From a virus, in IMG/VR virus record IMGVR_UViG_3300031972_002446, positions 64,001-128,000 of that record: a DNA stretch of 64,000 nt; one strand, 5' to 3'. Shown here one piece after another: positions 15,335 to 61,952 of this stretch. The translations under genes were made by a program, and so were the position numbers. The notes below the pieces were generated by a model. The model did no database searches. It saw nothing but the letters and a program-made list of their open reading frames with translations, and was not told the origin of the DNA. How positions within the stretch are numbered: the first letter of the stretch is position 1; every line of letters starts with the position of its first letter.

Positions 15335-16819
15335 TTATACCTTTAGCATCTTTCTAAATTCCATTACTGACTTTGCCGTAAACACTTCAGATATCCCGTA
15401 CTCTTTTATACATACTTCTGCCAGTTCTTCATCTGAATATTCCTTATATAAATACTCGATCATTTTTTCTGCTTCTATTCCCAATAATGTTCGACCATCT
15501 TTTCTGCGTAAATTATTTTCTAAATGACTCTGTAATGCTTTTGGTTTATATAAACCCATATCATATCTCATAGATCGCACAACCCCCATTTTATATACTT
15601 TCCCACATTCTTTATTTATATATTCCGCTAGTTGTTCGTCTGACATCTTTTCATAATTACTCGCAATCACTTGATAAACACCACTATTCCTACCTTTATT
15701 TCTAATAGGTTTATTTATTCTTTTATCTCTTCTATCTTTCTGACCCTTCCAGACATACTTCTGTAATTTCGATTTAATATTACTAATATCTTTAGAACTA
15801 ATATCTAAATTATATTTTTCACTAAAAGCCTCTGCTATTTTTTTATTCTTTTTATTACCATACTTATCCTGACATTCCTGCAAAAATTCAGCCACACCTT
15901 CTTGATTCCACAAAGATAGTCTTTTCTTAATTGTTGTATTATTTTTTATTATATCAGGATACTTTTCTCTTAGGTTTAATTCTTTTTCCCATCTATATAC
16001 TCCAGTAGCCACACTTATTTCTCCATTAACTTCACAATTGCTTTTCCATCCATAAAACTTAGTAATTTCTGCCCCATCTCCTTTAAACTTCAACCAAATC
16101 TTTTCAAACTGTTCTGGAAAATCCCCTCTTTTATCAATACCATTCTGTCTATGACTACCAGGTTTTAAATGCTTAGGATTATAACAACGTTTATTATCGC
16201 ACATATGTCTAATTAATTCTGGATATTCTCCATACTCATCCCAATAAGCTAGTCTATGTAACAGAATACTTTTATTTTCCTTGCCTATATGTATTACCAA
16301 TTTACAATAACCATCACCACTAGCATTTGATTTAATCATAGGTTCTTTACAAGAAGTTCCATTATAAATTTTATCACTTTTTATCACATAGTTATTATAT
16401 GTTTTACTTTTTCTTGCTTTATCTAAAAACTTAGTTATATCTTCTGCATTGACAGCTCTCCAATTATTTAACAAACATTCTTCTTTCCACCTATACTGAT
16501 ATTCCGTTTCCTTCTGTAAAATTAAACTTTCGTCGCATCTTTCTAAGATTACATACTTCATCTCATACTCTGGGCTATCAAAACACTCTTGAACTTTCTT
16601 AGAATAATGCTTCTTATTTTCTAGATGAAACTTATGTGTTTTGCATCTTGAGACTATATTTGCACTACTACCAACATATATTTTGACGTCATCCTCAGAT
16701 TGTTTCTGAAATACCAAGCCGTAGGTTCCAGAAATTTTTTCCAAACTAATTAAATATAATTCTTCAAATTCCTCAATTTCTTTTTTGGTAATTGCGTATT
16801 TTAGTGTTAATTGTGTCAT
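15335..16819 (-). CDS. homing-endonuclease-like protein: GIY-YIG + HNH (Zn-loop His-Me) domains plus C-terminal HTH-like repeats
   Basis: GTYGL..YVGSS..I.SR...H, ILE...E (GIY-YIG); HRLAY...IRHMCDNKRCYNPKHL...N (HNH). Confidence 0.8.
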   Translation of the reverse strand: MTQLTLKYAITKKEIEEFEELYLISLEKISGTYGLVFQKQSEDDVKIYVGSSANIVSRCKTHKFHLENKKHYSKKVQECFDSPEYEMKYVILERCDESLILQKETEYQYRWKEECLLNNWRAVNAEDITKFLDKARKSKTYNNYVIKSDKIYNGTSCKEPMIKSNASGDGYCKLVIHIGKENKSILLHRLAYWDEYGEYPELIRHMCDNKRCYNPKHLKPGSHRQNGIDKRGDFPEQFEKIWLKFKGDGAEITKFYGWKSNCEVNGEISVATGVYRWEKELNLREKYPDIIKNNTTIKKRLSLWNQEGVAEFLQECQDKYGNKKNKKIAEAFSEKYNLDISSKDISNIKSKLQKYVWKGQKDRRDKRINKPIRNKGRNSGVYQVIASNYEKMSDEQLAEYINKECGKVYKMGVVRSMRYDMGLYKPKALQSHLENNLRRKDGRTLLGIEAEKMIEYLYKEYSDEELAEVCIKEYGISEVFTAKSVMEFRKMLKV

Positions 16820-17008
16820 TATACCCCTTTTATTCTGCAAAAATAAAAATATATCTTTATAGTATCTTTTGTAGTTTAATCACAAAGAATCGTAATGTAC
16901 TATAATATATAATATGGTGCGATTTAAAAGCTTGACATATAAGGCGTTATAGCTTATAATATTATTAACGAATCGTTTTTTATTACCTATAGGAAAAAAG
17001 GAAATAAT

Positions 17009-17611
17009 ATGAAATTAGAGAAAAAAATCGTTATCCAACCCCCTCCTTTTTCTACCAATGCTGGACAAGTCGTTAATCCTGATCCACTAGAATTCGAAGA
17101 ATTGGACTTAACTTTTCAAGATACTCCTAAAGCAAAAACTATACAAGTATTTATTAAAGATATTCCTAATCCGATTAATCTTTATTCGGCAAAAGCTTAT
17201 GATGACTTAGGAGATTGGACTAAAGCACAATTAGAAACTCGTCTTAAAGAAGCTTTAGGTCCTTATCCAGATGTCTTTTTAAGAAGTACTTTTCCTAGAA
17301 CTATGGAAGAAGATCCACATGGCCCAGGAACTCAATTATCTAAAATGATTAAAACTTTAGGTATTCACATGAGCGATAGTTGCTCTTGTCGTAGACATGC
17401 GTTAAAAATGAATGAGATGGGCGGAGATTGGTGTTTAGAAAATATTGATACTGTGGTTGGGTGGTTAGAAGAAGAAGCGAAGCGTAGAGGTCTACCTTTT
17501 GTGAAGATGGTAGGAAAGGTAATGGTAAACAGGGCTGTTAAGAAATCTAAGAAATTAATAGCCAATGAACCAGTACCAGAGAATGATGAGGATTTGGATA
17601 AGGAAGATTAG
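17009..17611 (+). CDS. hypothetical protein with C-terminal Cys-containing domain
   Basis: sigma70 promoter TTGACA-N17-TATAAT at ~16932-16960; GPGT.L..MI..LGI...CSC...MN..G.DWC. Confidence 0.7.
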   Translation: MKLEKKIVIQPPPFSTNAGQVVNPDPLEFEELDLTFQDTPKAKTIQVFIKDIPNPINLYSAKAYDDLGDWTKAQLETRLKEALGPYPDVFLRSTFPRTMEEDPHGPGTQLSKMIKTLGIHMSDSCSCRRHALKMNEMGGDWCLENIDTVVGWLEEEAKRRGLPFVKMVGKVMVNRAVKKSKKLIANEPVPENDEDLDKED

Positions 17612-17672: not shown

Positions 17673-17711
17673 TTTATATATTGGTGTATATAAAAAACAT
17701 ACGCATCTTAT

Positions 17712-18671
17712 ATGACATTGAACATCAAGGGTAAAAATATGGCTGAAGTAGTTTTAGGAACATTTAAGAATAATGACTTTGCTTGTGATGTATCTGATTG
17801 TGCTGTATCTGAGGGCAGTGCTGTCACAACCGTAACTAAGGTTACTTTTGATGATGATGTTCTTAAAGGCATATCTATAAAATCACCTCCAACATCAATA
17901 AAAAATTACGTTCGCAAATCATGGAGCCCTCTTGCATACGGTAGGACCGGGTCCGGTTGTACCCCCTACACAGCCGAACAATTCGCGCAAGTAGTTCAAA
18001 GCGAAGCAGCTGGTCTGACAGCTTGCTCAGGAAATTCAAATGCTACTTTTACAACCGGTACTTGTAGTTTAACAGTTTCAGGAAGTGTTACTGTTGTTTA
18101 TAGAGAACCTGGTAGCATCTTTGGAGGCAAAACCAATTGTGGTAATAGCGGTAGTATAACAAAGACTTTCAGTTATCATGCTCCATACTTGACTGGTCCT
18201 CAGTCAGTAACATTACAGAAAACATCTATGAATATGGAATTAGTAGACGGAGATGGTAATAGAACATCAACAGCTCAACCTATAGGACGAGACCTACCAA
18301 TGCCTCCTAATTGCTACGATGGAAGTACGCAATATGCATACAAGATGGAAGCTTGTCACGTTTGTGGAATTCCTTTCGGTAATGGGTCAGGACCAGGTTC
18401 TGCAACATTATGCAAAGGCACAGGTAACGAGCAAAATGTTTTTTCTGACACTGCTCATTCCACAGGTACTGCTATAGATAATGGTTATCCTACAGCAGGT
18501 CTTGCTGGAGCGGCTATGGCTGCTGTGGCAGGTCAAGCAGTAGCTGCTTTTGGTGCAGCCCGAGCAAATGCGATCAAAGCATATAAGGCTGCTTTAGCAG
18601 AAATGCCCGATCCTAATTGTGGTAGAATTTCTGTTGCGGTAAATTGCACTGCCTCAGTAGGTTGTTTTTAA
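17712..18671 (+). CDS. Cys/Thr/Gly-rich putative virion protein
   Basis: late motif TTGGTGTATA upstream; beta-rich composition; probable start 17739. Confidence 0.6.
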   Translation: MTLNIKGKNMAEVVLGTFKNNDFACDVSDCAVSEGSAVTTVTKVTFDDDVLKGISIKSPPTSIKNYVRKSWSPLAYGRTGSGCTPYTAEQFAQVVQSEAAGLTACSGNSNATFTTGTCSLTVSGSVTVVYREPGSIFGGKTNCGNSGSITKTFSYHAPYLTGPQSVTLQKTSMNMELVDGDGNRTSTAQPIGRDLPMPPNCYDGSTQYAYKMEACHVCGIPFGNGSGPGSATLCKGTGNEQNVFSDTAHSTGTAIDNGYPTAGLAGAAMAAVAGQAVAAFGAARANAIKAYKAALAEMPDPNCGRISVAVNCTASVGCF

Positions 18672-18709: not shown

Positions 18710-19888
18710 ATGGCAATTTATCAACCTATCAATTTAAATGAAACTGCTACTAGATTATCTTTTAAAGGAGCAGATGATAGTACTTTTACTGTTTCCTCAG
18801 GCAAGGTTGTAGATAAAGGTATAAATTTATTAATTAAAAATCCAGGAAATGAAACTAAAACAGATATGTATTTTCAAGTACATGAAGATTCTATTTCTAT
18901 AGAAACAAGTGATGTGACGTATTCTGGTTCTAAAATATATGGATTAATAGAATCTAGTATAGATTATGAAGATGATCAACCCGCTATTATAGAATTTAAT
19001 ATTACTTCTCCTACTTATAGGCCAGAATTTTCTAGCGTTGTAGCATCAGGTTTATTTCAAGGAAATAATTCTTATTCATTAACGGAAGACTATCTTTATA
19101 GCGATACCAGAGATCTTCATTATATTGATAGTGATTCTATGAATTCTATTTTTCTTGATATTTCTTTAATGTCTACAATCAATAGTATCGATATTTATAG
19201 TGGTGGATCTGGTTACAAATTAGGTACTGTATTTACTTTATCAAATAATGATGCTAGAACTACCATAGGCGGTTTATCTGATGCTAGTATTACTGGTAAT
19301 TTAAGTTTGAATAGTGGTACTGTTAGTATTAGCGGAGGCGAGTCTTATCAAGTAGGCGAAACCTTTACCGTAACAGATAGTGTTTCTGGTAGCAGTGGTA
19401 TTATACAAATTACAGAAGTAGCTTATAATAGTAGAGCAATTACAAAAATAATATTAGTATCTTCAGATAATGGTTTTACTAACACACCATCTGTAACTTA
19501 TAATGGTTCTAATGGTTCGGGAGCGACAATCACAATTAATGATAATTATACATTAGGTAGCGTAACAGTTAATGATGGTGGAGAAGCATATCCTGGTGGT
19601 ATTAATAGGGTAAAATCAAGTTTAGCTAGTGTTGAATATGATCCAACTGTTCAAGCGATATTAGTATTAATTACTGAATCATATAGAGAATCTGGTGTTT
19701 CTATAAAAAATAATTTCATATTGGCAGATTGTAAGATTAAAGAAGCAGGTAATAATTTAAACAGTGAATCTGATTATAAGTTATTTGATAATAATAAACA
19801 ATATAATTTTAACGATTATATTACTATTAATGCGTATATAGATATTGATGATACTATACCTAATAATGATCCAGTTTTTTTCGTGTAA
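18710..19888 (+). CDS. putative virion structural protein with GSGY repeats (paralog 1)
   Basis: SGGSGYKLG, SGGESYQVGE, GFTNTPSVT, GSGATIT repeats typical of phage baseplate/fibre proteins. Confidence 0.65.
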   Translation: MAIYQPINLNETATRLSFKGADDSTFTVSSGKVVDKGINLLIKNPGNETKTDMYFQVHEDSISIETSDVTYSGSKIYGLIESSIDYEDDQPAIIEFNITSPTYRPEFSSVVASGLFQGNNSYSLTEDYLYSDTRDLHYIDSDSMNSIFLDISLMSTINSIDIYSGGSGYKLGTVFTLSNNDARTTIGGLSDASITGNLSLNSGTVSISGGESYQVGETFTVTDSVSGSSGIIQITEVAYNSRAITKIILVSSDNGFTNTPSVTYNGSNGSGATITINDNYTLGSVTVNDGGEAYPGGINRVKSSLASVEYDPTVQAILVLITESYRESGVSIKNNFILADCKIKEAGNNLNSESDYKLFDNNKQYNFNDYITINAYIDIDDTIPNNDPVFFV

Positions 19889-19908
19889 ATTTATAGGAGA
19901 CTTACCAA

Positions 19909-20853
19909 ATGAGCCGTTGCTGTACTGATGATTGCACTTGCCCTGAAGCACCCAAAACAGGAGCCTGGAGCACTGCGCACGGTCCTGGTTGTTGTGGTTG
20001 TCTCTACGATCAGGAGGGTGCTAGTTGCACAGATGTTCATGGTAAAAAACTTCCTGAGAGACATCCAGATCCTGATAATTGCAGTTGCATATGTAAAGGC
20101 GCTTCAGATGAGATTTGTGCGGCAAATCCGGGAATTCATACAGAGTTTGATAGTTTGAATTGTAGATGTTGGTGTTCTTATCTTGATGAAGAAGATGATG
20201 GAACTATAACAGATACTTGCGCTGGAGATAGTGGTGGTAAAATGTTTATTGACAAGGGATGTGATTGTGTTTGCGAATCAAGTTTTCCTTGTCCAGATCC
20301 TAAAAAACCTAAATGGGTCGTAAATGGTAAATATGACTGTGAATGTAAGTGTGATATAGAGCCAGAAGAATGTGAAGGATTCACGCCTGATTTTAATGAA
20401 GAAGAGTGTAAATGTCAATGTGATTTAATAGAAGCAAATCCAGATGAGCCTTGCCAAGATCCTGCAGCACCTCATTTCAACCACGCGGGATGTGGATGTG
20501 AATGTTATACATATAAGGTGGAATGTGATGAACCAGCCAAACCAGATGTAAAAAAAGAAGATTGTTCGTGTTTTTGTAGCAAAGCTGAGACAGGCTATTG
20601 TGAAAGCATAGAAACTGGTACCGGAGCTCAAGCAGGAAATTATCATGTTTTAGATCCTGCTAATTGTAAATGTGTATGTAACGCTGAGTGCTCAGCTCCT
20701 CTTGTGAAAGGAGATGGATGTTATTGTCGCTGTCCCTCAGAAACTATTTCTCCTACGTGTGATAAAGCTACTGAGAAATTTGATCCAGATAGTTGTTCGT
20801 GTGTTCCAAAAGATTATGTTTTAAGTCTTTTGAGTGAAGAGTTAATTCCGTAG
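19909..20853 (+). CDS. Cys-rich CxCxC-repeat protein (paralog 1)
   Basis: ~46 Cys in 314 aa; 9 CxCxC motifs each preceded by a lone Cys; AGGAG RBS. Confidence 0.8.
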   Translation: MSRCCTDDCTCPEAPKTGAWSTAHGPGCCGCLYDQEGASCTDVHGKKLPERHPDPDNCSCICKGASDEICAANPGIHTEFDSLNCRCWCSYLDEEDDGTITDTCAGDSGGKMFIDKGCDCVCESSFPCPDPKKPKWVVNGKYDCECKCDIEPEECEGFTPDFNEEECKCQCDLIEANPDEPCQDPAAPHFNHAGCGCECYTYKVECDEPAKPDVKKEDCSCFCSKAETGYCESIETGTGAQAGNYHVLDPANCKCVCNAECSAPLVKGDGCYCRCPSETISPTCDKATEKFDPDSCSCVPKDYVLSLLSEELIP

Positions 20854-20908
20854 CAATTGGTGTAATATAATAAAAGATACTACTTAATACGATAAAAAGA
20901 GGTTTTAT

Positions 20909-21100
20909 ATGAATATTAGTTATGGAAGTAAAATTAAATCTAGAATAGATAGAGATTTTAACGAAAGATCTATTACTAGGGGTACAGAACCTCAATTAAA
21001 AGACAAAACCAAAGTTGTATATCCTATACAACATCCTAGACCAAGATTCTTTTTGGGTCCATACAATCTTAAAGTTCAAACAGGGGGATCTGATATATGA
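20909..21100 (+). CDS. small basic hypothetical protein
   Basis: GAGG RBS, late motif upstream, ATGA overlap with the next gene. Confidence 0.55.
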   Translation: MNISYGSKIKSRIDRDFNERSITRGTEPQLKDKTKVVYPIQHPRPRFFLGPYNLKVQTGGSDI

Positions 21101-22494
21101 ATGACTCAAAAACTATGTATCAAATTTACAATGACGAATATTCATTAATATCTTATCCTTACGGAGTAGATAGTTCTTCTTTTGCTGTAGATGATACAAG
21201 AAAAGATATTACTTATGGTTTATATCTTAGAATTCCAATCGGAACTAGCGTAGCTACTCCGACTTTTAGAGAAGCGGAGTTGTTTACTGTATCTAAATTT
21301 AATGACGAAAGTATAGAATTTGTTACAGCTTCAGATAAATCTGGAAGTTTTTCTGCTTCTAGTGTTTATGTTGTTATTCCTTGTTATTCAAGAGTAGGTG
21401 GTAAAGGAAATACAATTATTGAATACGATATTGTTGCTGACACTCCCACTAATGCTTCAGGTGTAAATTTATTAAGCACAGAAAGTATTGATACAAGCAC
21501 CGATGGTATGAATACAGCTAATGTTTCTTCTGGGACCAAAGCAGAGCTAAGCGAAAGATTAGGATATAGTTATGATATAGTAAATGGTACTAATTTCAAC
21601 TCACGACCAAGAATTGCATCAGTATTAACAGCAGTTTCTGCTGAACCATCAGATGAAAACTATGTTAATCCTAGCTCGGGTTATAAAATAGGAACAACAT
21701 ACACAATATATCCGCTCGAAGGTTACTGGGATGATATAGACGCATCAAATATTGTTAAACCTACTATTACTGTTAATTATAATATATCATTAGACGCAGA
21801 AATGAAAACTACCAGTTTTACTATTACTGGTGGTTCTGGTTATCAAGCTGGTGATACATTTTCAGTGAGTAACGGAGGTTCTATAAAAGTGACATCTGTT
21901 GATAATCAAGGAGCTATTAGAGATATCGTTATGGTAACTCAAGGTTCTAGTTTTACCTCAGCGCCTACTGTTACTTACGATTCGCCTTCTAGAAGTGTTG
22001 TTGGTAGCGGAGCCACTGTTACTGTTAATAATAGTTATGCTGTAGATAGTGTTTCTTTAGATAGTTCTGATGGATTTCCTTTTACAGAAGGTGGTGTGGG
22101 TACTATCAGACCATTATCAGGTTATGATGCAGACTCAGATCTTATAGACTATACATTATATTATGAAACGGATAATCCAGGTGTTTATGCTGTTGAGAAT
22201 TTAGATAAGTTTTCTTTAGATTCTATCTACGTTATGAATAAGGGTGTTGGCTATGGTGCCGTTACTGATTATGATTTACATATTTATAAACCTAATTATG
22301 TTACTAGACTATATGAATATGTTGCAAACACTTTTGATATAACTTACGACTTAAAACTTAAGGCTGATTTACAGATGCTACCATCTTATGGAAGTAGTAC
22401 TCCAGATGCTAGTAGATTTTATAATCCTTCTGCGATAGTTGGTCCAACACCTAACAATCGTATATTCACACACACTATTAAGGAAGAGGAGTAA
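21097..22494 (+). CDS. putative virion structural protein with GSGY repeats (paralog 2)
   Basis: SSGYKIG, TGGSGYQAGDTF, GSSFTSAPTVT, GSGATVT repeats collinear with 18710..19888. Confidence 0.65.
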   Translation: MNDSKTMYQIYNDEYSLISYPYGVDSSSFAVDDTRKDITYGLYLRIPIGTSVATPTFREAELFTVSKFNDESIEFVTASDKSGSFSASSVYVVIPCYSRVGGKGNTIIEYDIVADTPTNASGVNLLSTESIDTSTDGMNTANVSSGTKAELSERLGYSYDIVNGTNFNSRPRIASVLTAVSAEPSDENYVNPSSGYKIGTTYTIYPLEGYWDDIDASNIVKPTITVNYNISLDAEMKTTSFTITGGSGYQAGDTFSVSNGGSIKVTSVDNQGAIRDIVMVTQGSSFTSAPTVTYDSPSRSVVGSGATVTVNNSYAVDSVSLDSSDGFPFTEGGVGTIRPLSGYDADSDLIDYTLYYETDNPGVYAVENLDKFSLDSIYVMNKGVGYGAVTDYDLHIYKPNYVTRLYEYVANTFDITYDLKLKADLQMLPSYGSSTPDASRFYNPSAIVGPTPNNRIFTHTIKEEE

Positions 22495-22499
22495 CTCTT

Positions 22500-23345
22500 A
22501 TGACAGTTCTTATATGTTGCGGAGGATGCAATTGTCCTTCAGATAAGCCTAATGTAATACCAGATGCTGTACAAGGACCATGTTGTAGATGTGATATTGA
22601 CGAAGGTATTGAAGAATGTCCTGCTAATGATCCTCATCCTGTTCATGGTAGATTACCAGGACCTGTAGGTGCTTGTGCGTGTGAGTGTGATCCCGGTAGA
22701 GCTGGTCAAATTGGTGAATACACACCTGAATTTGATGAAGATGGCGTTATGACAGCCAATACTTGGGAAGGAGAATGTCCTCCAAATGTTCCTGAATTTG
22801 ATACTGCTATTTGCGCATGTAAATGCACCAAGGATGCTGACACTTGTGCTCCTAAGACATTTATATCAGAAATCTGCGATTGTAAATGTACAAAAACCGA
22901 GGATGATTGCTCAGCCCCTAACCCAGAATTAGATCCAGACTCTTGCTCGTGCGGTCCATGTACGAACACTTGCGAAGATGCAGCCCTGCCAGATCGAGAT
23001 GATGATACATGTGAGTGTAAATGTGATAAAGACGATCCTGATGGTGGTAATTCTTGCCCAGAAGATACTCCGGATTTAAAAGCTGAAGATTGCAGTTGCT
23101 TCTGTGCTTTAGCTGAGCTTGAAACTCCTTGTGCTAAAGGTGAGAAGTTCTCCCCAGGTACTTGTTCTTGTGATCCTTGTCCTACACCATGCCCTGAAAA
23201 TCATGTCAGAGATGACGTAGGTTGTGGTTGTGCTTGTCCTCAGCCTAAAGCAATCTGTGCTTCAGATGAAACTTTTGATGATGAGACATGTAGTTGTGTT
23301 CCTAGCTATGCATCAGCTTTACTCGATGTAGACCTTCTACCTTAA
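22500..23345 (+). CDS. Cys-rich CxCxC-repeat protein (paralog 2)
   Basis: ~42 Cys in 281 aa; N- and C-termini match those of 19909..20853. Confidence 0.8.
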   Translation: MTVLICCGGCNCPSDKPNVIPDAVQGPCCRCDIDEGIEECPANDPHPVHGRLPGPVGACACECDPGRAGQIGEYTPEFDEDGVMTANTWEGECPPNVPEFDTAICACKCTKDADTCAPKTFISEICDCKCTKTEDDCSAPNPELDPDSCSCGPCTNTCEDAALPDRDDDTCECKCDKDDPDGGNSCPEDTPDLKAEDCSCFCALAELETPCAKGEKFSPGTCSCDPCPTPCPENHVRDDVGCGCACPQPKAICASDETFDDETCSCVPSYASALLDVDLLP

Positions 23346-23618: not shown

Positions 23619-23780
23619 ATGAAAAATCAGACTTATACAAATATTGCTGGATCTTCGGTTAAAGTTGTAGCATCTGAGGAATTGGAACTTAGCTTAGATA
23701 AGGATTTAAATGAGGAACAGGAAACAAAAAGTATTGAAGAATTACTGAATGAGCAAAAAAAAGCAGCAGAAACAACCTAA
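23619..23780 (+). CDS. small acidic protein (53 aa, not in ORF track)
   Basis: MKNQTYTNIAGSSVKVVASEELELSLD...; overlaps the sigma gene start. Confidence 0.45.
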   Translation: MKNQTYTNIAGSSVKVVASEELELSLDKDLNEEQETKSIEELLNEQKKAAETT

Positions 23781-24387
23781 GGTTTCAGATGAACAATTTC
23801 TAGAAACCCTAGATATTATAACCAAAAAACTGGTATATAAATTCAGATTCGGCTACCATGATATAGAAGATATGAAACAGCAGGCAGCTGTTTTTGCTCT
23901 AGAAGGACTTAAAAAGTACGACCATTCTAGACCTTTAGAAAACTTTTTATGGACACATGTTAGAAATCGCCTTTTCAACTATAAACGAGATAATTACCAA
24001 AGACCAGATAAGCCTTGTTTAACGTGTCCTTTATACCAACCTAATGACGAGGTTTCTGATTGCGCTCAATTTAAAGATAAATTAAATTGTAATGCTTATA
24101 AAGTTTGGTTTAAAAGAAACGATAGCAAAAAGAATATTATGCAGCCATCTTATATTGATGGTAAAGATCCTCAAAATAAAAAAGACTTCTTAAGAGATAT
24201 TATGAATTCTGAGGTTATTGATCAGATCGAAGACACACTACCTATCAAATATAGAAATACATACTTAAAATTAAAACATGGTATGAAGGTTGCTAAAAAT
24301 GATAAAGTTAAATTACAAAATTATATTAAACGACGCTTTATAGACAAAAATAAGAATAAAGATAATAAGGATAATGAAAATGAGTAA
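23749..24387 (+). CDS. phage sigma70-family factor (region 2 plus Cys insertion), probable late sigma
   Basis: DIEDMKQQA...LEGLKKYD.SRPLENFLW..VRNRL.NY.R region-2 pattern; KPCLTC...C...C; I..LP..YR region-4-like start. Confidence 0.7.
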   Translation: MSKKKQQKQPKVSDEQFLETLDIITKKLVYKFRFGYHDIEDMKQQAAVFALEGLKKYDHSRPLENFLWTHVRNRLFNYKRDNYQRPDKPCLTCPLYQPNDEVSDCAQFKDKLNCNAYKVWFKRNDSKKNIMQPSYIDGKDPQNKKDFLRDIMNSEVIDQIEDTLPIKYRNTYLKLKHGMKVAKNDKVKLQNYIKRRFIDKNKNKDNKDNENE

Positions 24388-29266: not shown

Positions 29267-31465
29267 ATGAGTAAAAAATATCCTAAAAGTGATGCTATCG
29301 AAGACGCCATAACAGAACAGGAAGAGCTATATGTAACTTGGGGAGAAGATTTAGAATCTAAACAGCAAGCTCTAGGGGAATCATCGAAATCTATTACTGA
29401 GTTTGAAGGAATACACAAAACTACTGGTTATGCTAGATATAGTAGAGACTTTTCTAATTTAGGAGAAAACCTTTCCGGTAGACCAGGACTAAGTCGATCG
29501 GATTATGATTATTTTAGACCTAACGAAGCTGTTCCTGTTAGACTAAAAAATATTATTAAAACAGCGGATACTATTTATCAACGGGTTGGTTTAGTTAAAA
29601 ATGTCATTGATTTGATGGGTGATTTTAGCTCACAAGGTATCAGGCTTGTTCACAGAAACAAAAGAATAGAAAGATTTTACACAAATTGGTTTGATAAAAT
29701 TGGAGGTACTGAAAGAAGCGAAAGATTTTTAAATAATTTGTATAGAGTTGGGAATGTTGTTATCAATAGACAAACAGCTAAAATAGGTAAAAAGACAGAG
29801 GATCAACTTTATAAAGCTGCTGGGGAAGCAGATATTCGTATAGAACAGGAAACTATTAACCGTAAAGAGATACCTTGGAGATATACTTTTATAGATCCTT
29901 TCTATGTTGATATTATGGGAGAAAGTCTGTCTTCTTTTGTTGGTAAAAAAAGTTATGCAATATCATTACCAGCTCAATTAAGAAAAACTATTAACAGTCC
30001 AAAAAATGCTGTAGAGAAACAAATAGTTTCAGAATTACCAGAAGATATAATTTTAGCAGCTAAAAATAAAACATTATACCCTCTTAGTCCAGACAAGACT
30101 TTGGTGTTTCATTATAAAAAAGATGATTGGCAAAATTGGGCATATCCTATGATTTATGCTATCATGGATGATATTAATATTATCGAAAAACTTAAGCTTG
30201 CAGATTTAGCAGCTCTAGATGGCGCTATTTCTAATATAAGAATTTTCAAACTAGGTAATCTCGAACATAAAATTGCTCCTACTAAAGCAGCTGCGGCTAA
30301 GTTATCTAATATCTTACAGAATAATGTTGGTGGAGGCACAATGGATTTAATTTGGGGTCCAGATATAGAGCTAATAGAATCAAAAACTAATGTACATCAA
30401 TTTTTAGGAGAAGCAAAATACACTCCTCATTTAAATAGTGTTTATGCTGGTCTTGGTATACCCCCGACTCTTACAGGTACTTATGGTGCTGCTGGGACAA
30501 CTAATAATTTCATCAGTCTTAAAACACTTACCCAAAGACTAGAATATGGTCGTCAGATTCTAAAGCAATTTTGGATAAAAGAGATTGAAAATGTGCAAAA
30601 GGCTATGGGTTTTAGATATCCAGCCAAAATTGAATTCGATAGAATGGATTTAAGTAATGAAGATGCTGAAAAGGCTTTATTGATACAGCTATCTGATCGT
30701 AATCTGGTTAGCGAGGAGTTGGTGCAAACTAGGTTTGGATTTGATGCTGATATGGAAAGTCTCCGAATTGCTAGAGAACAAAAAGAAAGAGACAATGCTA
30801 AGAGACCTAGTAAAGCTGGCCCATTTCATGAAGCTGATTTTGAAAACAGTCTCAAAAAGATTGTCTTGCAAAGTGGCATGGCAACACCTAGTGAGGTTGG
30901 TTTAGATCTAAAGTCGAAAAAAAGAGGTCAAAAGAATCTATATGAATTAAAGAACGAAAAGCCTTCTTCACCAGAAACCACAACGAAGTTGGTAAAAGAT
31001 TCGCCAGAATCTTTACCAGGTGTTCCGGGTGAGGGAAGACCTAAGTTGTCAAAAGACACAAAGAAACGAAAAAGCAAAACCTTTAAACCCCGAACAGGAG
31101 CTACTTTAGATATATGGGCTCAAGACGCTCAAGATAAAATTAGCGCTATTGTAAACCCCTTAATTTTAGATTATTACAAGAAGAAAAATCTGAGGTCTTT
31201 ATCTAGTGAGGAGTTCAAAAACTTAGAGTATGTTAAAACTCAAACTCTCTTTGCATTAAATCCATTTTCTAATATTGACGAGGAAAAAATTTCAGCTAAT
31301 ATAAAAAATGTACACAATAATAATACCAAAAAACATATAATGGGGTATGAATATTGGTTGAAGGCTATTGGTAATGATCTTGATCGTTCTTTGACTATTG
31401 AAGAGCAAAAGATTGTTAAATCTGTCTATTATTCAACCATTCACCATAAAGAGAGTGTTTTATGA
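29267..31465 (+). CDS. portal protein
   Basis: follows TerL; 732 aa; VKNVIDLM.DF, GNV, LGIPP.L features. Confidence 0.8.
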   Translation: MSKKYPKSDAIEDAITEQEELYVTWGEDLESKQQALGESSKSITEFEGIHKTTGYARYSRDFSNLGENLSGRPGLSRSDYDYFRPNEAVPVRLKNIIKTADTIYQRVGLVKNVIDLMGDFSSQGIRLVHRNKRIERFYTNWFDKIGGTERSERFLNNLYRVGNVVINRQTAKIGKKTEDQLYKAAGEADIRIEQETINRKEIPWRYTFIDPFYVDIMGESLSSFVGKKSYAISLPAQLRKTINSPKNAVEKQIVSELPEDIILAAKNKTLYPLSPDKTLVFHYKKDDWQNWAYPMIYAIMDDINIIEKLKLADLAALDGAISNIRIFKLGNLEHKIAPTKAAAAKLSNILQNNVGGGTMDLIWGPDIELIESKTNVHQFLGEAKYTPHLNSVYAGLGIPPTLTGTYGAAGTTNNFISLKTLTQRLEYGRQILKQFWIKEIENVQKAMGFRYPAKIEFDRMDLSNEDAEKALLIQLSDRNLVSEELVQTRFGFDADMESLRIAREQKERDNAKRPSKAGPFHEADFENSLKKIVLQSGMATPSEVGLDLKSKKRGQKNLYELKNEKPSSPETTTKLVKDSPESLPGVPGEGRPKLSKDTKKRKSKTFKPRTGATLDIWAQDAQDKISAIVNPLILDYYKKKNLRSLSSEEFKNLEYVKTQTLFALNPFSNIDEEKISANIKNVHNNNTKKHIMGYEYWLKAIGNDLDRSLTIEEQKIVKSVYYSTIHHKESVL

Positions 31466-58874: not shown

Positions 58875-61800
58875 ATGGCATGTTCAGTCAATATGTTTTT
58901 TGGTGAAAGGTTATTAGCCAATGGCACTTTTGAAATATTCATGTCTGAGCAAGATCAAGTATATATAGAGAATTATGATTGTACCATGATATCTAAAGCT
59001 CTTGGTTTAAATTTTACAGATTTTACATTAACAGAGGAAGAACTTTTAGCCACTGCTAGTATGTCGTGTTGGACTTCTTACATAGGAACCCCTACCGCCA
59101 ACCAAACAGAGCTTTTTGGGTATAAGGTTTTTGAATCTCTTTTTGGTGCTGACGGCTTAGCTAAGCTGCGTGACCTAGTAGCAGATAATTTTGAAGATTT
59201 AGCATTAAACCAAAATACTGGAGCTATGAATTCTCATATGAACTCTATAGCTAAAGAAGATGCGGCTGTTAATATCCCTAAATTAGAACAAGCTCATGCT
59301 TGGATTTCTAGTATACATAGTGATTTTTATGGAAAACAATACTTAATACAAATAGGAGACGATACGGCTGGGGTTTGTATTAAAGATAGATTTGGTAATA
59401 TTCCAGCAGGTAATATTAAAATTGAGTCTGAGGGTGGTTTATATTATTCTAGCGACTCTCCTGCTTCTGGTGGGGCGTGGCCAAATGCTGGACAGGTTCA
59501 GGTATTAGGTTTAAATGTAGGTTCTGAAACTTTATTATTTCAAGAATCGGATAATCGTATAGGCGCTTTTGTTAAACTATCAGATTATAAAAATGTTTCT
59601 AAGTATAATCATACATGGGAAGTTGATTTATCTTCTTTAAGTGATGATAATTTTTATAAACAGGGAGAAGACTTATTTATTAAAGCTGGCTTATCAGACG
59701 CCTTGTATCAGTATGATAACAAACAATATATTTTACTAGAAATGTCTGCTGTCCCCAGATTGCAGATTAAAGGGGATGGTGAGCTATGCCCGGCTAATCT
59801 TATGAGTCAAGGCGCTATTGCTGTGATGGCTTTATTTGAAAGTCATTACAGTGATGTTGATACAGCTCTTCAGGATATATTTTGTGATGACCCAAATAAC
59901 ACTAAGAACGGTACTGTTCCTAATAGATCAGCATTTAATGTTTTAAATAGTAATAAGCCTTCTATAGTTCCAGATAATTTTATCTGTCCTATGAAAAGCA
60001 ATTTATTTGTATATGGTCCCTGGTTTCATCAAACAAATCCAGTTGGAGGCACAATAGTAGATCCTAATAAAGAATTATGTCCTTGGAGATTTAGCGATGG
60101 TAATGATGATGGTTATACTAGAATGGATGTATATGGAAACTTAATAGCAAATGATGGACCTAGAGGTTTACAGAAGCAAGAATCTGGTTCTATTACAGTA
60201 GCAGCATTACCTTCTTATAATCTCGGTCATATAGTTGCACAAAATGCGGCTACTCTTACTGATATTAGTATTAGCATAGGTGAAAGTGGTTATACAACTA
60301 CTTATAATTTTCAAACATATACTCCAAAATTCGGTAGTCCTGGTAGAGCATTAAAGGATTTATGGTCTAAAAGCTATCAATCGATGTCTTATTTAAATAA
60401 ATATTTTAAAGATCAAAAATTAGAATTAAATAAATTAATTAATAATAATGATATCAGATTACAAGATGCACAAGCTAGAAGATTTGATGTTGATGGTGCT
60501 GTTAGTAGTGGCGTTTCTGAAGATGCTGGTAAAGGAGCTACAACATCATCAAGTAGTCCGGGTGTTATTTTATTTTCTGGATTTTTCTACAGAGATAAAG
60601 AAGATAATGCGCAAGGAGGTGCGGATTCACATGATGGATCGTCAGTTGAGATGACTCCTTGTTCTAAATGTAGAGACAGCACTACTGACCAAAACATCCC
60701 TGAGAAATCTGTAGACTCTGACGGTAATATTTTACAGAATAGACCATTTTCTATGTTGGAGAAAGCATATAGTTGGGAACATATTAAAGAAAATACTTTT
60801 AAAAGATTAGCTTTATCAAGTTTAGATTTAATTTTTGGAGGCATTAGCACGAAAACTCAAGAGGATCAAGAAGCAGAACTACCCAGACTATCATTATATA
60901 CAAATTATGATGCCGATTATTCAGAATGGTCGGATAAAGAAGATGATGAGGATCCTGGAAGACCACCTAAGTCTAGACCAAGATTAGAAATACCTCCTTT
61001 TGAATTTATGAATGAATTAGAGTACGACCTACCCATACATCAGCAATATTTAAATAGTGTTACTTCGGGAACCATGTTAAGTAGCTGGGACGATAGATCT
61101 AATTCTAGCACTAAAGGATTTATTGCGTATTTAATTAGTGCTGGTGAAACATATGAAGATTTTAAATTAACTATTTTAGATGAAAATGAAACCGATAGAC
61201 AAGAATTTGATAATTTTAGATATAATGCTTTAAGAGGACCTTTAACTCTACAGTCTTGGGGTTACGACACATCTGGAAAACCTATCCCTAACGCCATAGA
61301 CTCAGCTAACAACACAGAACGAGGTAAGTTTAGAAGAAAAGGACTCAAAGACAAGTTTTTAAAAGATTGGCTTGAAAATCCCAAATCATGGCCTGTAGGA
61401 CCTATAGATTTAAGATGGGACAGAGAAAGAGGGGTTTGGGTATCTCCTCCAGCCAATAAAATTGTGGTAGCTAGATTGACGCAAAATTTGAATAAATTTG
61501 GTGTCGCAGAAGCTGAGCTTATAGATCCAGAAGCTGGTTCAGCTTCGTTCTACGAGTATTATGATATATGGGATAAAGATGGCAGAAATATTAAAGTTGC
61601 ATTAACTAAAACTAAAATTAAAGTATATGATTTTCTTGGTATCGACTTATGTAAATGCGATCATGTTTATGCTTACTATGACGATAATAGATATATCGTT
61701 TTAGAAAGTAGTAGAGCTTATAAAGACCCCAATGAGCTATGTTGTACAACAGCAACTCCTGTTCCTTCGCCTCACACAACAATACCAACTTCGTGTTGGT

Positions 61801-61952
61801 GTAATTTAGAATGTCTACAGACTCTTAAAGGATATCAAGAAGGTAAGCATCAAGCTTTGGTTCATAAGTCTGAAACTGGTGGTCCCGATTGTTTAGTTTG
61901 GGAAGATATTGTTGAATGCTATACACCCCCTCCTGAGCATTTTATAGAATAA
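58875..61952 (+). CDS. large tail tip/central fibre protein
   Basis: 1025 aa; YGPW, G.TTTY.F.TYTP.FG, LRGPL....WGYD..G, GPIDLRWD..RGVW. Confidence 0.6.
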   Translation: MACSVNMFFGERLLANGTFEIFMSEQDQVYIENYDCTMISKALGLNFTDFTLTEEELLATASMSCWTSYIGTPTANQTELFGYKVFESLFGADGLAKLRDLVADNFEDLALNQNTGAMNSHMNSIAKEDAAVNIPKLEQAHAWISSIHSDFYGKQYLIQIGDDTAGVCIKDRFGNIPAGNIKIESEGGLYYSSDSPASGGAWPNAGQVQVLGLNVGSETLLFQESDNRIGAFVKLSDYKNVSKYNHTWEVDLSSLSDDNFYKQGEDLFIKAGLSDALYQYDNKQYILLEMSAVPRLQIKGDGELCPANLMSQGAIAVMALFESHYSDVDTALQDIFCDDPNNTKNGTVPNRSAFNVLNSNKPSIVPDNFICPMKSNLFVYGPWFHQTNPVGGTIVDPNKELCPWRFSDGNDDGYTRMDVYGNLIANDGPRGLQKQESGSITVAALPSYNLGHIVAQNAATLTDISISIGESGYTTTYNFQTYTPKFGSPGRALKDLWSKSYQSMSYLNKYFKDQKLELNKLINNNDIRLQDAQARRFDVDGAVSSGVSEDAGKGATTSSSSPGVILFSGFFYRDKEDNAQGGADSHDGSSVEMTPCSKCRDSTTDQNIPEKSVDSDGNILQNRPFSMLEKAYSWEHIKENTFKRLALSSLDLIFGGISTKTQEDQEAELPRLSLYTNYDADYSEWSDKEDDEDPGRPPKSRPRLEIPPFEFMNELEYDLPIHQQYLNSVTSGTMLSSWDDRSNSSTKGFIAYLISAGETYEDFKLTILDENETDRQEFDNFRYNALRGPLTLQSWGYDTSGKPIPNAIDSANNTERGKFRRKGLKDKFLKDWLENPKSWPVGPIDLRWDRERGVWVSPPANKIVVARLTQNLNKFGVAEAELIDPEAGSASFYEYYDIWDKDGRNIKVALTKTKIKVYDFLGIDLCKCDHVYAYYDDNRYIVLESSRAYKDPNELCCTTATPVPSPHTTIPTSCWCNLECLQTLKGYQEGKHQALVHKSETGGPDCLVWEDIVECYTPPPEHFIE

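What the first reader, a model, noticed from the sequence alone, without database searches (positions are those of the whole stretch)
18710..23345. Tandemly duplicated two-gene module: GSGY beta protein plus silk-like CxCxC Cys-rich protein
Seen: the arrangement [GSGY 393 aa][CxCxC 314 aa][63 aa][GSGY 465 aa][CxCxC 281 aa], behind late-type motifs and outside the main tail operon. The Cys proteins are ~15% Cys, acidic and Pro-rich, have no signal peptide, and are built of C-x(9-21)-CxCxC units. Their ends are conserved (CC..C.CP...GP.CC.C and FD...CSCVP....LL...L(I/L)P), but unit number and sequence differ. Known: C-x10-CxCxC repeats typify Chironomus Balbiani-ring-3 silk protein and the VEGF-C C-terminal domain, which are eukaryotic secreted disulfide proteins. 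Inference: variable virion fibres (adaptor plus filament) that either chelate many metal ions or are disulfide-locked after lysis. The flanking genes 17009 and 17712 and the tail-tip C-terminus are also Cys-rich.
Basis: partly seen in the sequence, partly recalled or inferred. Interest (0 to 1): 0.8.

Follow-up and report, generated by a model that had tools for sequence, protein, structure and literature searches.

The report
Cysteine-ladder accessory modules of a phage
A large uncultured phage, probably of planctomycete bacteria, carries two copies of a swappable gene set: a beta-rich particle-type protein followed by an acidic rod-like protein that is 15% cysteine. The rod's repeat pattern looks like the animal 'silk-homology' (VEGF-C / Balbiani-ring) repeat, and this gene family has not been described in phages.

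Summary
The region holds two late-type transcription units: [319 aa][GSGY-A 392][Cys-A 314] and [63 aa][GSGY-B 465][Cys-B 281].

- **Paralogy:** both protein pairs are paralogous at about 32% identity.
- **Pairing:** in 32 related loci, all 13 non-redundant GSGY genes are followed by a CxCxC-type Cys-rich gene.
- **Cys parity:** 31 of 32 non-redundant Cys-rich proteins have an even Cys count.
- **Tail:** all of them end in a conserved Y..SLL…L[LI]P peptide.
- **Divergence:** cysteines are invariant while the rest diverges fast (dN/dS 0.4–0.6, against 0.02–0.2 in neighbouring genes).
- **GSGY fold:** the GSGY core folds like the surface domain I of T4 sheath gp18 (Z 7.9).
- **Cys-A model:** a hairpin-repeat rod whose nearest shapes are VEGF-C/BR3 proteins, but Pfam CXCXC is borderline (14.4 bits against a 15-bit cut-off).
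- **Dispensable:** the module is absent from two near-complete relatives.
- **Enzymes:** the genome has no radical-SAM, Erv1 or DsbA gene.

Best reading (about 45%): an exchangeable accessory fibre or decoration on the particle surface, stapled by disulfide bonds. Presence in the particle and binding between the two proteins remain unshown. This family was not noted before on other DNA in this scan.

The parts
17683..17693 (+). Promoter-like element GGTGTATATAA of unit A, 29 nt before the start of 17712, just after a terminator-like hairpin
   Evidence: The same [AG]GTGTA(W)5 element lies 57-59 nt before structural-block genes 29267 and 37481. Four of 8 copies are immediately upstream of starts, although only about 3% of the block is non-coding.
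17712..18671 (+). First gene of unit A: 319-aa protein with 13 Cys, the fastest-evolving gene of the region
   Evidence: 66% identity to L002 where neighbouring genes are 94-100%. dN/dS 0.70. A divergent gene of 303-504 aa holds the same position before GSGY in relatives. Its Cys counts have mixed parity.
18710..19888 (+). GSGY-A: 392-aa all-beta protein. Its core (residues 203-277) has a fold like T4 gp18 domain I.
   Evidence: AF2 pLDDT 81.6. 3fo8_D Z 7.9, rmsd 2.5 A, 73 residues, 26% identity, with the next unrelated chain at Z 3.6. 18 BFVD phage proteins at E<=1e-3.
19909..20853 (+). Cys-A: 314 aa, 46 Cys, nine C-x(9-22)-CxCxC units, acidic (pI 4.3), no signal peptide
   Evidence: AF2 pLDDT 75.3 with hairpin repeats. 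Pfam CXCXC 14.4 bits against a 15-bit cut-off.
20809..20850 (+). C-terminal tail peptide of Cys-A (…KDYVLSLLSEELIP)
   Evidence: The tail consensus Y.QSLL..DL[LI]P is shared by 30 of 30 non-redundant Cys-rich proteins of the lineage. Only 7 of 453 control ORFs end in Pro.
20859..20869 (+). Promoter-like element GGTGTAATATA of unit B, 50 nt before the start of 20909
20909..21100 (+). First gene of unit B: 63-aa protein of the MNI.YGS+I..R.D small-protein family. Its stop overlaps the GSGY-B start.
   Evidence: Counterparts precede GSGY-B or Cys-rich genes in L002, L004, L005, L007, L011, L013 and L014. dN/dS 0.07.
21097..22494 (+). GSGY-B: 465-aa paralogue of GSGY-A
   Evidence: An exhaustive search found 22 relatives, one of them a low-complexity false positive. 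Alignment A2.
22500..23345 (+). Cys-B: 281 aa, 42 Cys, eight BR3P-like units (two with CxCxxC), pI 4.05
23301..23342 (+). C-terminal tail peptide of Cys-B (…PSYASALLDVDLLP)
17009..17611 (+). Conserved 200-aa 'anchor' gene that marks the hypervariable cassette. It is context, not part of the module.
   Evidence: 59-96% identical across 30 loci. Cys-rich cassettes lie on either side of it in relatives.

Best explanation
The region holds two paralogous, exchangeable late-gene modules that most likely build accessory surface appendages (side fibres or decoration) on the virion of a large long-tailed phage, probably of Planctomycetota.

Proposed roles:
- The GSGY protein is the particle-type beta-rich component. 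It carries a protruding domain like domain I of the T4 sheath.
- The downstream Cys-rich protein is an elongated rod of 8-11 small hairpin units. Each unit has one lone Cys plus a CxCxC strand.
- Because CxCxC places three thiols on one face of a strand, neighbouring units can be stapled by two disulfides per unit. This would give a covalently cross-braced, acidic rod.
- The cysteines are the fixed scaffold, and the exposed residues between them diversify quickly.
- The invariant 14-residue C-terminal peptide ending in Pro, and the N-terminal CC..C.CP motif, would be the docking or oligomerisation elements shared by otherwise unrelated Cys-rich bodies.
- With no signal peptide and no phage-encoded cytoplasmic oxidase, oxidation would occur after lysis in oxic water.

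Shown: gene structure, paralogy, conserved pairing, the Cys skeleton, parity, the tail peptide, fast divergence, accessory status, the fold of GSGY, and promoter-like elements shared with structural genes.

Inferred: location in the virion, disulfide chemistry, rod shape, docking role of the termini, and a binding function.
For: - Pairing: all 13 non-redundant GSGY genes are followed within -3 to 48 nt by a CxCxC-type gene, sometimes with touching or overlapping stop and start.
- GSGY core matches T4 gp18 domain I: Z 7.9, rmsd 2.5 A, 26% identity, well above the next unrelated hit at Z 3.6.
- BFVD: 18 hits at E<=1e-3. The named ones are baseplate wedge, minor tail, P22 gp10-like and a birnavirus structural polyprotein.
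- GGTGTA(W)5 elements are shared with the genes at 29267 and 37481.
- 35 of the 42 invariant alignment columns are Cys.
- dN/dS is 0.41 and 0.56 for the Cys proteins, against 0.02-0.18 in neighbouring genes.
- 31 of 32 non-redundant proteins have an even Cys count, only 18 of 32 are multiples of 4, and the neighbouring 319-aa family has mixed parity as a control.
- The Cys-A model consists of hairpin repeats.
- CXCXC proteins rank first by shape: BR3-like and VEGF-C. There is a local match to the solved VEGF-A heparin-binding domain, a BR3P repeat (PMC10328876).
- The tail peptide is present in 30 of 30 proteins.
- Cassette content varies from 0 to 5 Cys-rich genes among relatives.
Against: - There is no proteomic or structural evidence that any of these proteins is in the virion.
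- The module lies outside the head-tail gene block and is absent from two near-complete relatives. It cannot be a core particle part, and it could be non-structural.
- No module protein shares a domain with the tail or baseplate genes of the same genome.
- Phage particles assemble in a reducing cytoplasm, and no cytoplasmic thiol oxidase is encoded. A protein with 46 Cys would have to stay soluble before oxidation.
- Structural matches of the Cys-A model are all weak (TM <0.4; no VIA hit at Z>=2).
- Even parity partly follows from a 4-Cys repeat unit, and related proteins are not independent samples.
Confidence: 0.45

Rival explanations
1. Same location on the particle, but the cysteines hold metal ions (Zn, Cu, Cd or Fe thiolate clusters, as in metallothioneins or zinc-ribbon strings) instead of forming disulfides. 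This would let the protein fold in the reducing cytoplasm.
For: - The protein is cytoplasmic, with no signal peptide.
- No cytoplasmic oxidase is encoded.
- There are four Cys per unit.
- CxC and CC motifs also occur in metallothioneins (general knowledge).
- The protein is acidic.
Against: - Cys counts are even but often not multiples of four (46, 42, 58, 50, 34, 30).
- There is almost no His (7 and 3).
- Cys density is 15%, not about 30%.
- Regular hairpin secondary structure is predicted with pLDDT about 85.
- The nearest shapes are disulfide modules: BR3P, VEGF heparin-binding domain and EGF.
Confidence: 0.2
2. The Cys-rich proteins are not surface parts. They are late cargo or effector proteins that share a short C-terminal targeting peptide, in the way the polymorphic T4 internal proteins share a capsid-targeting sequence. 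They would be packaged into the head or released at lysis, and they diversify in an arms race with host defences.
For: - Very different Cys-rich bodies share only the 14-residue tail.
- They sit in a hypervariable present/absent cassette next to the packaging genes.
- dN/dS is elevated.
- The module is dispensable in relatives.
- The proteins are strongly acidic, as many phage anti-restriction DNA mimics are (general knowledge).
Against: - The partner GSGY protein has an exposed particle-type domain.
- A rod with about 23 cross-links could not pass through a tail channel.
- The targeting peptide of T4 internal proteins is N-terminal and is cleaved (general knowledge).
- No prohead-protease-type site is evident.
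Confidence: 0.15
3. The cysteines are cross-linked enzymatically (thioether stapling by radical-SAM/SPASM maturases), as proposed for Cys-repeat fibres of other phages elsewhere in this scan.
For: Earlier notes of this scan describe Cys-repeat phage fibres that travel with radical-SAM genes. These are leads only.
Against: - The genome, rated 100% complete by CheckV, has no Radical_SAM or SPASM match, while the controls rang.
- No enzyme-sized gene lies in any of the 32 cassettes.
- The repeat is about 25 residues with 4 Cys, not a short CXXX-type repeat.
Confidence: 0.03
4. Evolutionary claim, independent of function: the phage repeat is truly homologous to the animal BR3P / silk-homology (Pfam CXCXC) repeat, through transfer in one direction or the other, rather than convergent.
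For: - Modal spacing is C-x10-11-CxCxC, with an acidic-aromatic-acidic triplet (P-D-F-D) before the CxCxC.
- The CxCx(1-3)C variants allowed by the published motif are present (PMC10328876).
- One relative passes the Pfam cut-off (17.5 bits against 15), and Cys-A scores 14.4 bits.
- CXCXC proteins rank first in two shape searches.
- Some source samples are animal-associated, for example a crustacean metagenome.
Against: - Only 3 of 16 members give any CXCXC hit.
- A profile search of 5.8 billion proteins returned only phage-type proteins at E<=10.
- There was no hit among PDB sequences.
- TM-scores are below 0.4.
- A 13-position Cys-dominated model is easily matched by convergence.
- The phage proteins are acidic and lack signal peptides, unlike the animal ones.
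Confidence: 0.25

Closest known systems
BR3P / 'silk homology' repeat (Pfam PF03128 CXCXC) of Chironomus Balbiani-ring-3 protein, the VEGF-C/D C-terminal domain and the VEGF-A heparin-binding domain
   Same: Both have tandem units of one lone Cys followed about 10-11 residues later by C-x-C-x(1-3)-C. Both have four Cys per unit, hairpin-type units and many repeats in a row. CXCXC proteins are the nearest shapes to the model (PMC5816233, PMC10328876).
   Different: The phage proteins have no signal peptide. They are strongly acidic rather than heparin-binding and basic. Their spacing is looser (x9-22). They carry their own conserved N- and C-terminal peptides. They mostly fall below the Pfam cut-off. 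The published range of the motif is animals.
Domain I of the bacteriophage T4 tail sheath protein gp18 (PDB 3FO8/3FOA)
   Same: The conserved GSGY core (residues 203-277) superposes at Z 7.9, rmsd 2.5 A, with 26% identity. In T4 this is the outward-facing, dispensable domain of a particle protein.
   Different: Only this roughly 75-residue domain matches. No other part of the sheath protein was found in the GSGY protein, and no Pfam sheath family matched. The rest of the GSGY protein is made of other beta domains.
Exchangeable tail-fibre / receptor-binding cassettes of tailed phages
   Same: Late expression signals, duplication, presence/absence and shuffling among relatives, conserved termini with variable bodies, and raised dN/dS.
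   Different: No fibre, tailspike or chaperone family is detectable. The module lies outside the tail gene block. The Cys content is about ten times that of ordinary fibres.
Polymorphic internal-protein loci of T4-type phages (short shared capsid-targeting sequence plus unrelated bodies)
   Same: A short invariant terminal peptide joined to very diverse bodies, in a hypervariable, dispensable locus. The comparison with T4 rests on general knowledge.
   Different: Here the peptide is C-terminal. The bodies are Cys ladders and are paired with a particle-type beta protein.
Radical-SAM-associated Cys-repeat phage fibres noted elsewhere in this scan
   Same: Cys-repeat proteins encoded by large uncultured phages and read as stapled fibres (unchecked notes).
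   Different: This genome has no radical-SAM or SPASM gene. The repeat is longer and of BR3P type.

Membership tests
Pfam PF03128 CXCXC (BR3P / silk-homology repeat) | Whole-protein score at or above the curated cut-off (15 bits) | tested here: inconclusive
   Cys-A scores 14.4 bits and Cys-B gives no hit. Two of 9 aligned members hit at E<10. One of 7 further relatives passes, at 17.5 bits.
Pfam PF03128 CXCXC (BR3P / silk-homology repeat) | Tandem repeats of C-X10-C-X-C-X(1,3)-C (PMC10328876) | tested here: inconclusive
   Strict X10 spacing occurs 0 times in Cys-A and 2 times in Cys-B. With X9-12 there are 4 and 7 units; with X9-22 there are 9 and 8. Shuffles give no more than 4. The family-wide mode is X10-11.
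Pfam PF03128 CXCXC (BR3P / silk-homology repeat) | Secreted extracellular protein (signal peptide) | tested here: not met
   The N-termini MSRCCTDDCTCPEA and MTVLICCGGCNCPS have no hydrophobic signal segment. The same holds in relatives.
Pfam PF03128 CXCXC (BR3P / silk-homology repeat) | All cysteines in disulfide bonds | not testable with these tools
   Only indirect evidence: an even Cys count in 31 of 32 proteins.
Phage tail sheath (T4 gp18 family) | Full sheath architecture, not only the protruding domain I | tested here: inconclusive
   Only residues 203-277 match gp18 domain I. No sheath family matched in Pfam or PHROGs. I do not file the protein as a sheath.
Phage tail fibre / receptor-binding protein families | Match to a known fibre, spike or fibre-chaperone family | tested here: inconclusive
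   No Pfam, PHROG or NCBIfam family passes threshold. At fold level there are BFVD hits to baseplate-wedge and minor-tail proteins at E 1e-3 to 5e-8 but with low TM-scores.
Radical-SAM-matured Cys-repeat fibre systems | A radical-SAM/SPASM maturase encoded with the Cys-repeat protein | tested here: not met
   No PF04055 or PF13186 match in the whole genome, while the controls rang. None is present in the 32 cassettes.
Metallothionein-like metal-thiolate proteins | About 30% Cys, little regular secondary structure, bound metal | tested here: inconclusive
   The proteins are 14.6-14.9% Cys, and hairpin repeats are predicted. Metal content cannot be tested here.

The most novel reading that the evidence does not exclude
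Tailed phages of planctomycete-type hosts carry a family of signal-less, enzyme-independent BR3P-type 'cysteine-ladder' rods that are truly related to the animal silk-homology domain. On this reading the proteins are made reduced in the cytoplasm, are mounted on the particle through a universal 14-residue C-terminal peptide, and lock themselves by about 20-29 disulfides on release into oxic water. That would be an oxidation-triggered maturation of a virus appendage. It would also be the first non-animal home for a repeat whose origin is stated to be unknown.
Probability: 0.12. Interest if true: 0.85.

Novelty: new variant of a known kind. Interest (0 to 1): 0.6.

Why it matters
- If these are surface appendages, they are a new building principle for phage fibres: a scaffold held by a fixed ladder of about 20-29 cysteine pairs, with freely mutable surfaces between them.
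- They raise the question of how a particle assembled in a reducing cytoplasm handles dozens of thiols.
- The shared 14-residue C-terminal peptide on unrelated bodies points to a plug-in docking system that could be tested and reused.
- The likeness to the CX10CXCXC repeat of VEGF-C and silk proteins touches an open question. Published reviews call its origin unknown (PMC5816233).
- The family also gives a handle on an almost unstudied group of large phages that probably infect Planctomycetota.

Tried and rejected
- **No relatives in cultured-phage records.** Megablast of the region and tblastn of Cys-A and of the GSGY core against 50,697 phage records gave no match.
- **Single-protein pattern scans of viral contigs** found no relatives. 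The A2 profile was too variable for a pattern scan. The conserved 200-aa neighbour was used as an anchor instead.
- **No family assignment.** PHROGs and NCBIfam gave nothing for any module protein, apart from a weak 'head closure Hc2' hit for GSGY-A at E 0.0014, which I do not rely on.
- **Cys-protein profile searches.** The A1 profile found only 4 phage-type proteins among 5.8 billion, even at E<=10. It found nothing among PDB sequences and nothing in 304 Planctomycetota genomes. This profile also missed a known member in G307, so its negatives are weak.
- **Structure searches for the Cys-A model.** Foldseek against PDB gave nothing at E<=0.001. VIA wide gave nothing at Z>=2.
- **Complex prediction** of GSGY-A with Cys-A gave no verdict (score 0.00, below the mark). 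It is evidence neither for nor against binding.
- **False positive.** P0009, a 2760-aa hit with 46 stretches in the GSGY search, is a low-complexity repeat protein and was dropped.
- **Redox and maturase genes in the genome.** No Erv1/ALR, DsbA, radical-SAM or SPASM match was found. The only glutaredoxin hit is the exported thioredoxin-fold gene.
- **No shared domains.** BLAST of the module proteins against all ORFs of the genome found no domain shared with tail or baseplate genes.
- **Literature.** Searches for CXCXC repeats in phages, cysteine-rich planctomycete-phage proteins and disulfide-linked phage fibres found no precedent.

Full report
**Context.** The window is bases 64001-128000 of a 165,940-bp virus record rated complete. 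The plus-strand block from about 16.8 kb to 62 kb holds a sigma-factor-like gene (23749), a large terminase (27173; PHROG 2, E 2e-23) and a 4205-aa Cys-free giant protein that earlier notes read as the tape measure. No cultured phage is close: the best terminase matches are about 25% identical. A DUF1501-type auxiliary gene of the phage is most similar to Planctomycetota genes (Singulisphaera 48%, Gemmata 46%, Kuenenia 41%), followed by Verrucomicrobiota. A planctomycete host is therefore plausible but unproven.

**The observation.**
- All five ORFs exist as described.
- GSGY-A and GSGY-B are paralogues (32% identity, E 4e-16), and so are Cys-A and Cys-B (32%, E 6e-11).
- Cys-A has 46 Cys in 314 aa, and Cys-B has 42 Cys in 281 aa. 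Both are acidic (pI 4.3 and 4.05) and Pro-rich, and neither has a signal-like N-terminus.
- Units of the form C-x(9-22)-C-x-C-x(1-3)-C occur 9 and 8 times. The maximum in 2000 shuffles is 4.
The tail-tip C-terminus does hold 9 Cys in its last 100 residues.

**Transcription units.** An element [AG]GTGTA(W)5 lies 29 nt before 17712 and 50 nt before 20909. It also lies 57-59 nt before genes 29267 and 37481 of the structural block. Four of the 8 copies sit directly upstream of starts, although only about 3% of this block is non-coding. The modules are therefore [319 aa][GSGY-A][Cys-A] and [63 aa][GSGY-B][Cys-B]. They appear to be expressed with the particle genes.

**Relatives.**
- A close relative (L002) has the same gene order. 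Flanking genes are 94-100% identical, but Cys-A is 80%, Cys-B 83% and the 319-aa protein 66% identical. The Cys counts are unchanged.
- dN/dS is 0.41 for Cys-A, 0.56 for Cys-B and 0.70 for the 319-aa gene, against 0.02-0.18 in neighbouring genes.
- An exhaustive search with GSGY-B found about 20 distant relatives. Their contigs show a 14-16% Cys gene directly downstream each time.
- With the conserved 200-aa neighbour as an anchor, I fetched 22 more loci and made a census.
- All 13 non-redundant GSGY genes are followed by a CxCxC-type gene, at gaps of -3 to 48 nt.
- The cassette holds 0 to 5 Cys-rich genes, on either side of the anchor gene.
- Two near-complete relatives (131 kb and 153 kb) have no GSGY gene anywhere, in a search that did recover the known positives. 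The complete 153-kb genome has no Cys-rich protein with the tail peptide. The module is therefore accessory.

**The Cys-rich superfamily.**
- Thirty-one of 32 non-redundant members have an even number of Cys. There are 14 distinct even values from 24 to 58 and a single odd one, 57. Only 18 of 32 are multiples of four.
- The neighbouring 319-aa family has mixed parity (13, 14, 15, 22, 24, 27), so even parity is not generic in these phages.
- In the alignment of CxCxC-type members, 35 of the 42 invariant columns are Cys.
- Every member ends in a tail with consensus Y-x-Q-S-L-L-x-x-D-L-[LI]-P. The terminal Pro is present in 30 of 30, against 7 of 453 control ORFs, and the last Cys lies 12-17 residues from the end.
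- Members without CxCxC motifs share this tail, so the tail defines a wider family than the repeat does.
- Over 100 units, the modal spacing is x10-11 and the consensus is C-P-x3-P-D-F-D-x3-C-x-C-x-C.

**Structures.**
- GSGY-A models well (pLDDT 81.6, all beta). Its conserved core matches T4 gp18 domain I at Z 7.9, rmsd 2.5 A and 26% identity. The next unrelated chain scores Z 3.6.
- In BFVD it hits 18 phage proteins at E<=1e-3. The named ones are baseplate wedge, minor tail, P22 gp10-like and a birnavirus structural polyprotein.
- Cys-A models as a chain of short hairpins, with each CxCxC in a strand (pLDDT 75, pTM 0.41).
- No solved structure matches the Cys-A model as a whole.
- The best local match is the VEGF-A heparin-binding domain in 4deq (50 residues, rmsd 3.3 A). 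PMC10328876 describes this domain as one complete and one incomplete BR3P repeat.
- Two independent models rank BR3-like and VEGF-C proteins first by shape, at low TM-scores.

**Comparison with the CXCXC family.** The Pfam model gives 14.4 bits for Cys-A against a 15-bit cut-off, and nothing for Cys-B. One of 16 tested relatives passes, at 17.5 bits. No animal protein appears in the sequence searches. I therefore describe the proteins as BR3P-like in pattern and probable architecture, and I do not file them as family members. PMC5816233 states that the CX10CXCXC signature is otherwise known from VEGF-C and Chironomus silk proteins, and that its origin is unknown.

**Chemistry.** The genome encodes no Erv1/ALR, DsbA, radical-SAM or SPASM enzyme. 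The single thioredoxin-fold gene has an N-terminal membrane or signal segment and a WCPYC site. It is therefore exported, and it more likely serves the phage's periplasmic cytochrome genes. Parity and shape favour disulfides formed after release. Metal-thiolate sites remain a serious rival.

**Verdict.**
- The best-supported reading is an exchangeable accessory surface module with a disulfide-laddered rod (confidence about 0.45).
- Virion location, chemistry and binding between the two proteins are inferences.
- The complex prediction gave no verdict.

Noticed in passing
G000:C1:28591-29064, minus strand (L010:1462-1935; upstream of the window): A 157-aa thioredoxin-fold protein with an N-terminal hydrophobic anchor or signal and a WCPYC active site (Thioredoxin_2, E 7e-10). 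This is a phage-encoded exported thiol-disulfide oxidoreductase. It possibly serves the periplasmic cytochrome/DUF1501 auxiliary genes.
   Followed up: partly
window 17009-17611: A 200-aa gene of unknown function is very well conserved across the lineage (59-96% identity) and includes an invariant SDSCSCRRH stretch. It marks the hypervariable cassette. In L031-L038 a second copy or the only copy sits directly before the ERCC4-like and terminase genes.
   Followed up: partly
window 17683, 20859, 29208, 37424 (and 41109): The element [AG]GTGTA(W)5 lies 29-59 nt upstream of four gene starts in the plus-strand block. It is a candidate promoter for the phage's own sigma-like factor (23749-24387).
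   Followed up: partly
L014:2420-4265, L024:5758-8901, L029:416-3193, L039:2455-7840: Relatives carry other Cys-rich protein types (24-52 Cys, no CxCxC motif) upstream of the anchor gene. Small 'MN.IY.SYGSRI' proteins often precede them. All end in the same …L[LI]P tail.
   Followed up: partly
window 58875-61952: The 1025-aa distal tail protein has 9 Cys in its last 100 residues (CKC, CC, CWC..C motifs). Distal tail genes at 54-62 kb hold 2-4% Cys, whereas the 4205-aa giant protein and several upstream structural-block genes (29267, 33162, 33641, 39342) have none.
   Followed up: no
G000:C1:51662-52957 (L016:1663-2958, minus strand): The nearest cellular homologues of the DUF1501-type auxiliary gene are Planctomycetota (Singulisphaera 48%, Gemmata 46%, Kuenenia 41%), followed by Verrucomicrobiota. 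This hints at the host.
   Followed up: partly
G000:C1:48380-49134, minus strand: Two adjacent small ORFs (119 and 117 aa; 7% and 11% Cys) have signal-like N-termini and may be exported Cys-rich proteins. They are unrelated to the CxCxC family.
   Followed up: no
window 15335-16840, minus strand: A 501-aa HNH-type endonuclease (PHROG 1872, E 1e-13) is conserved at the left edge of the cassette in most relatives. It could promote cassette exchange.
   Followed up: no
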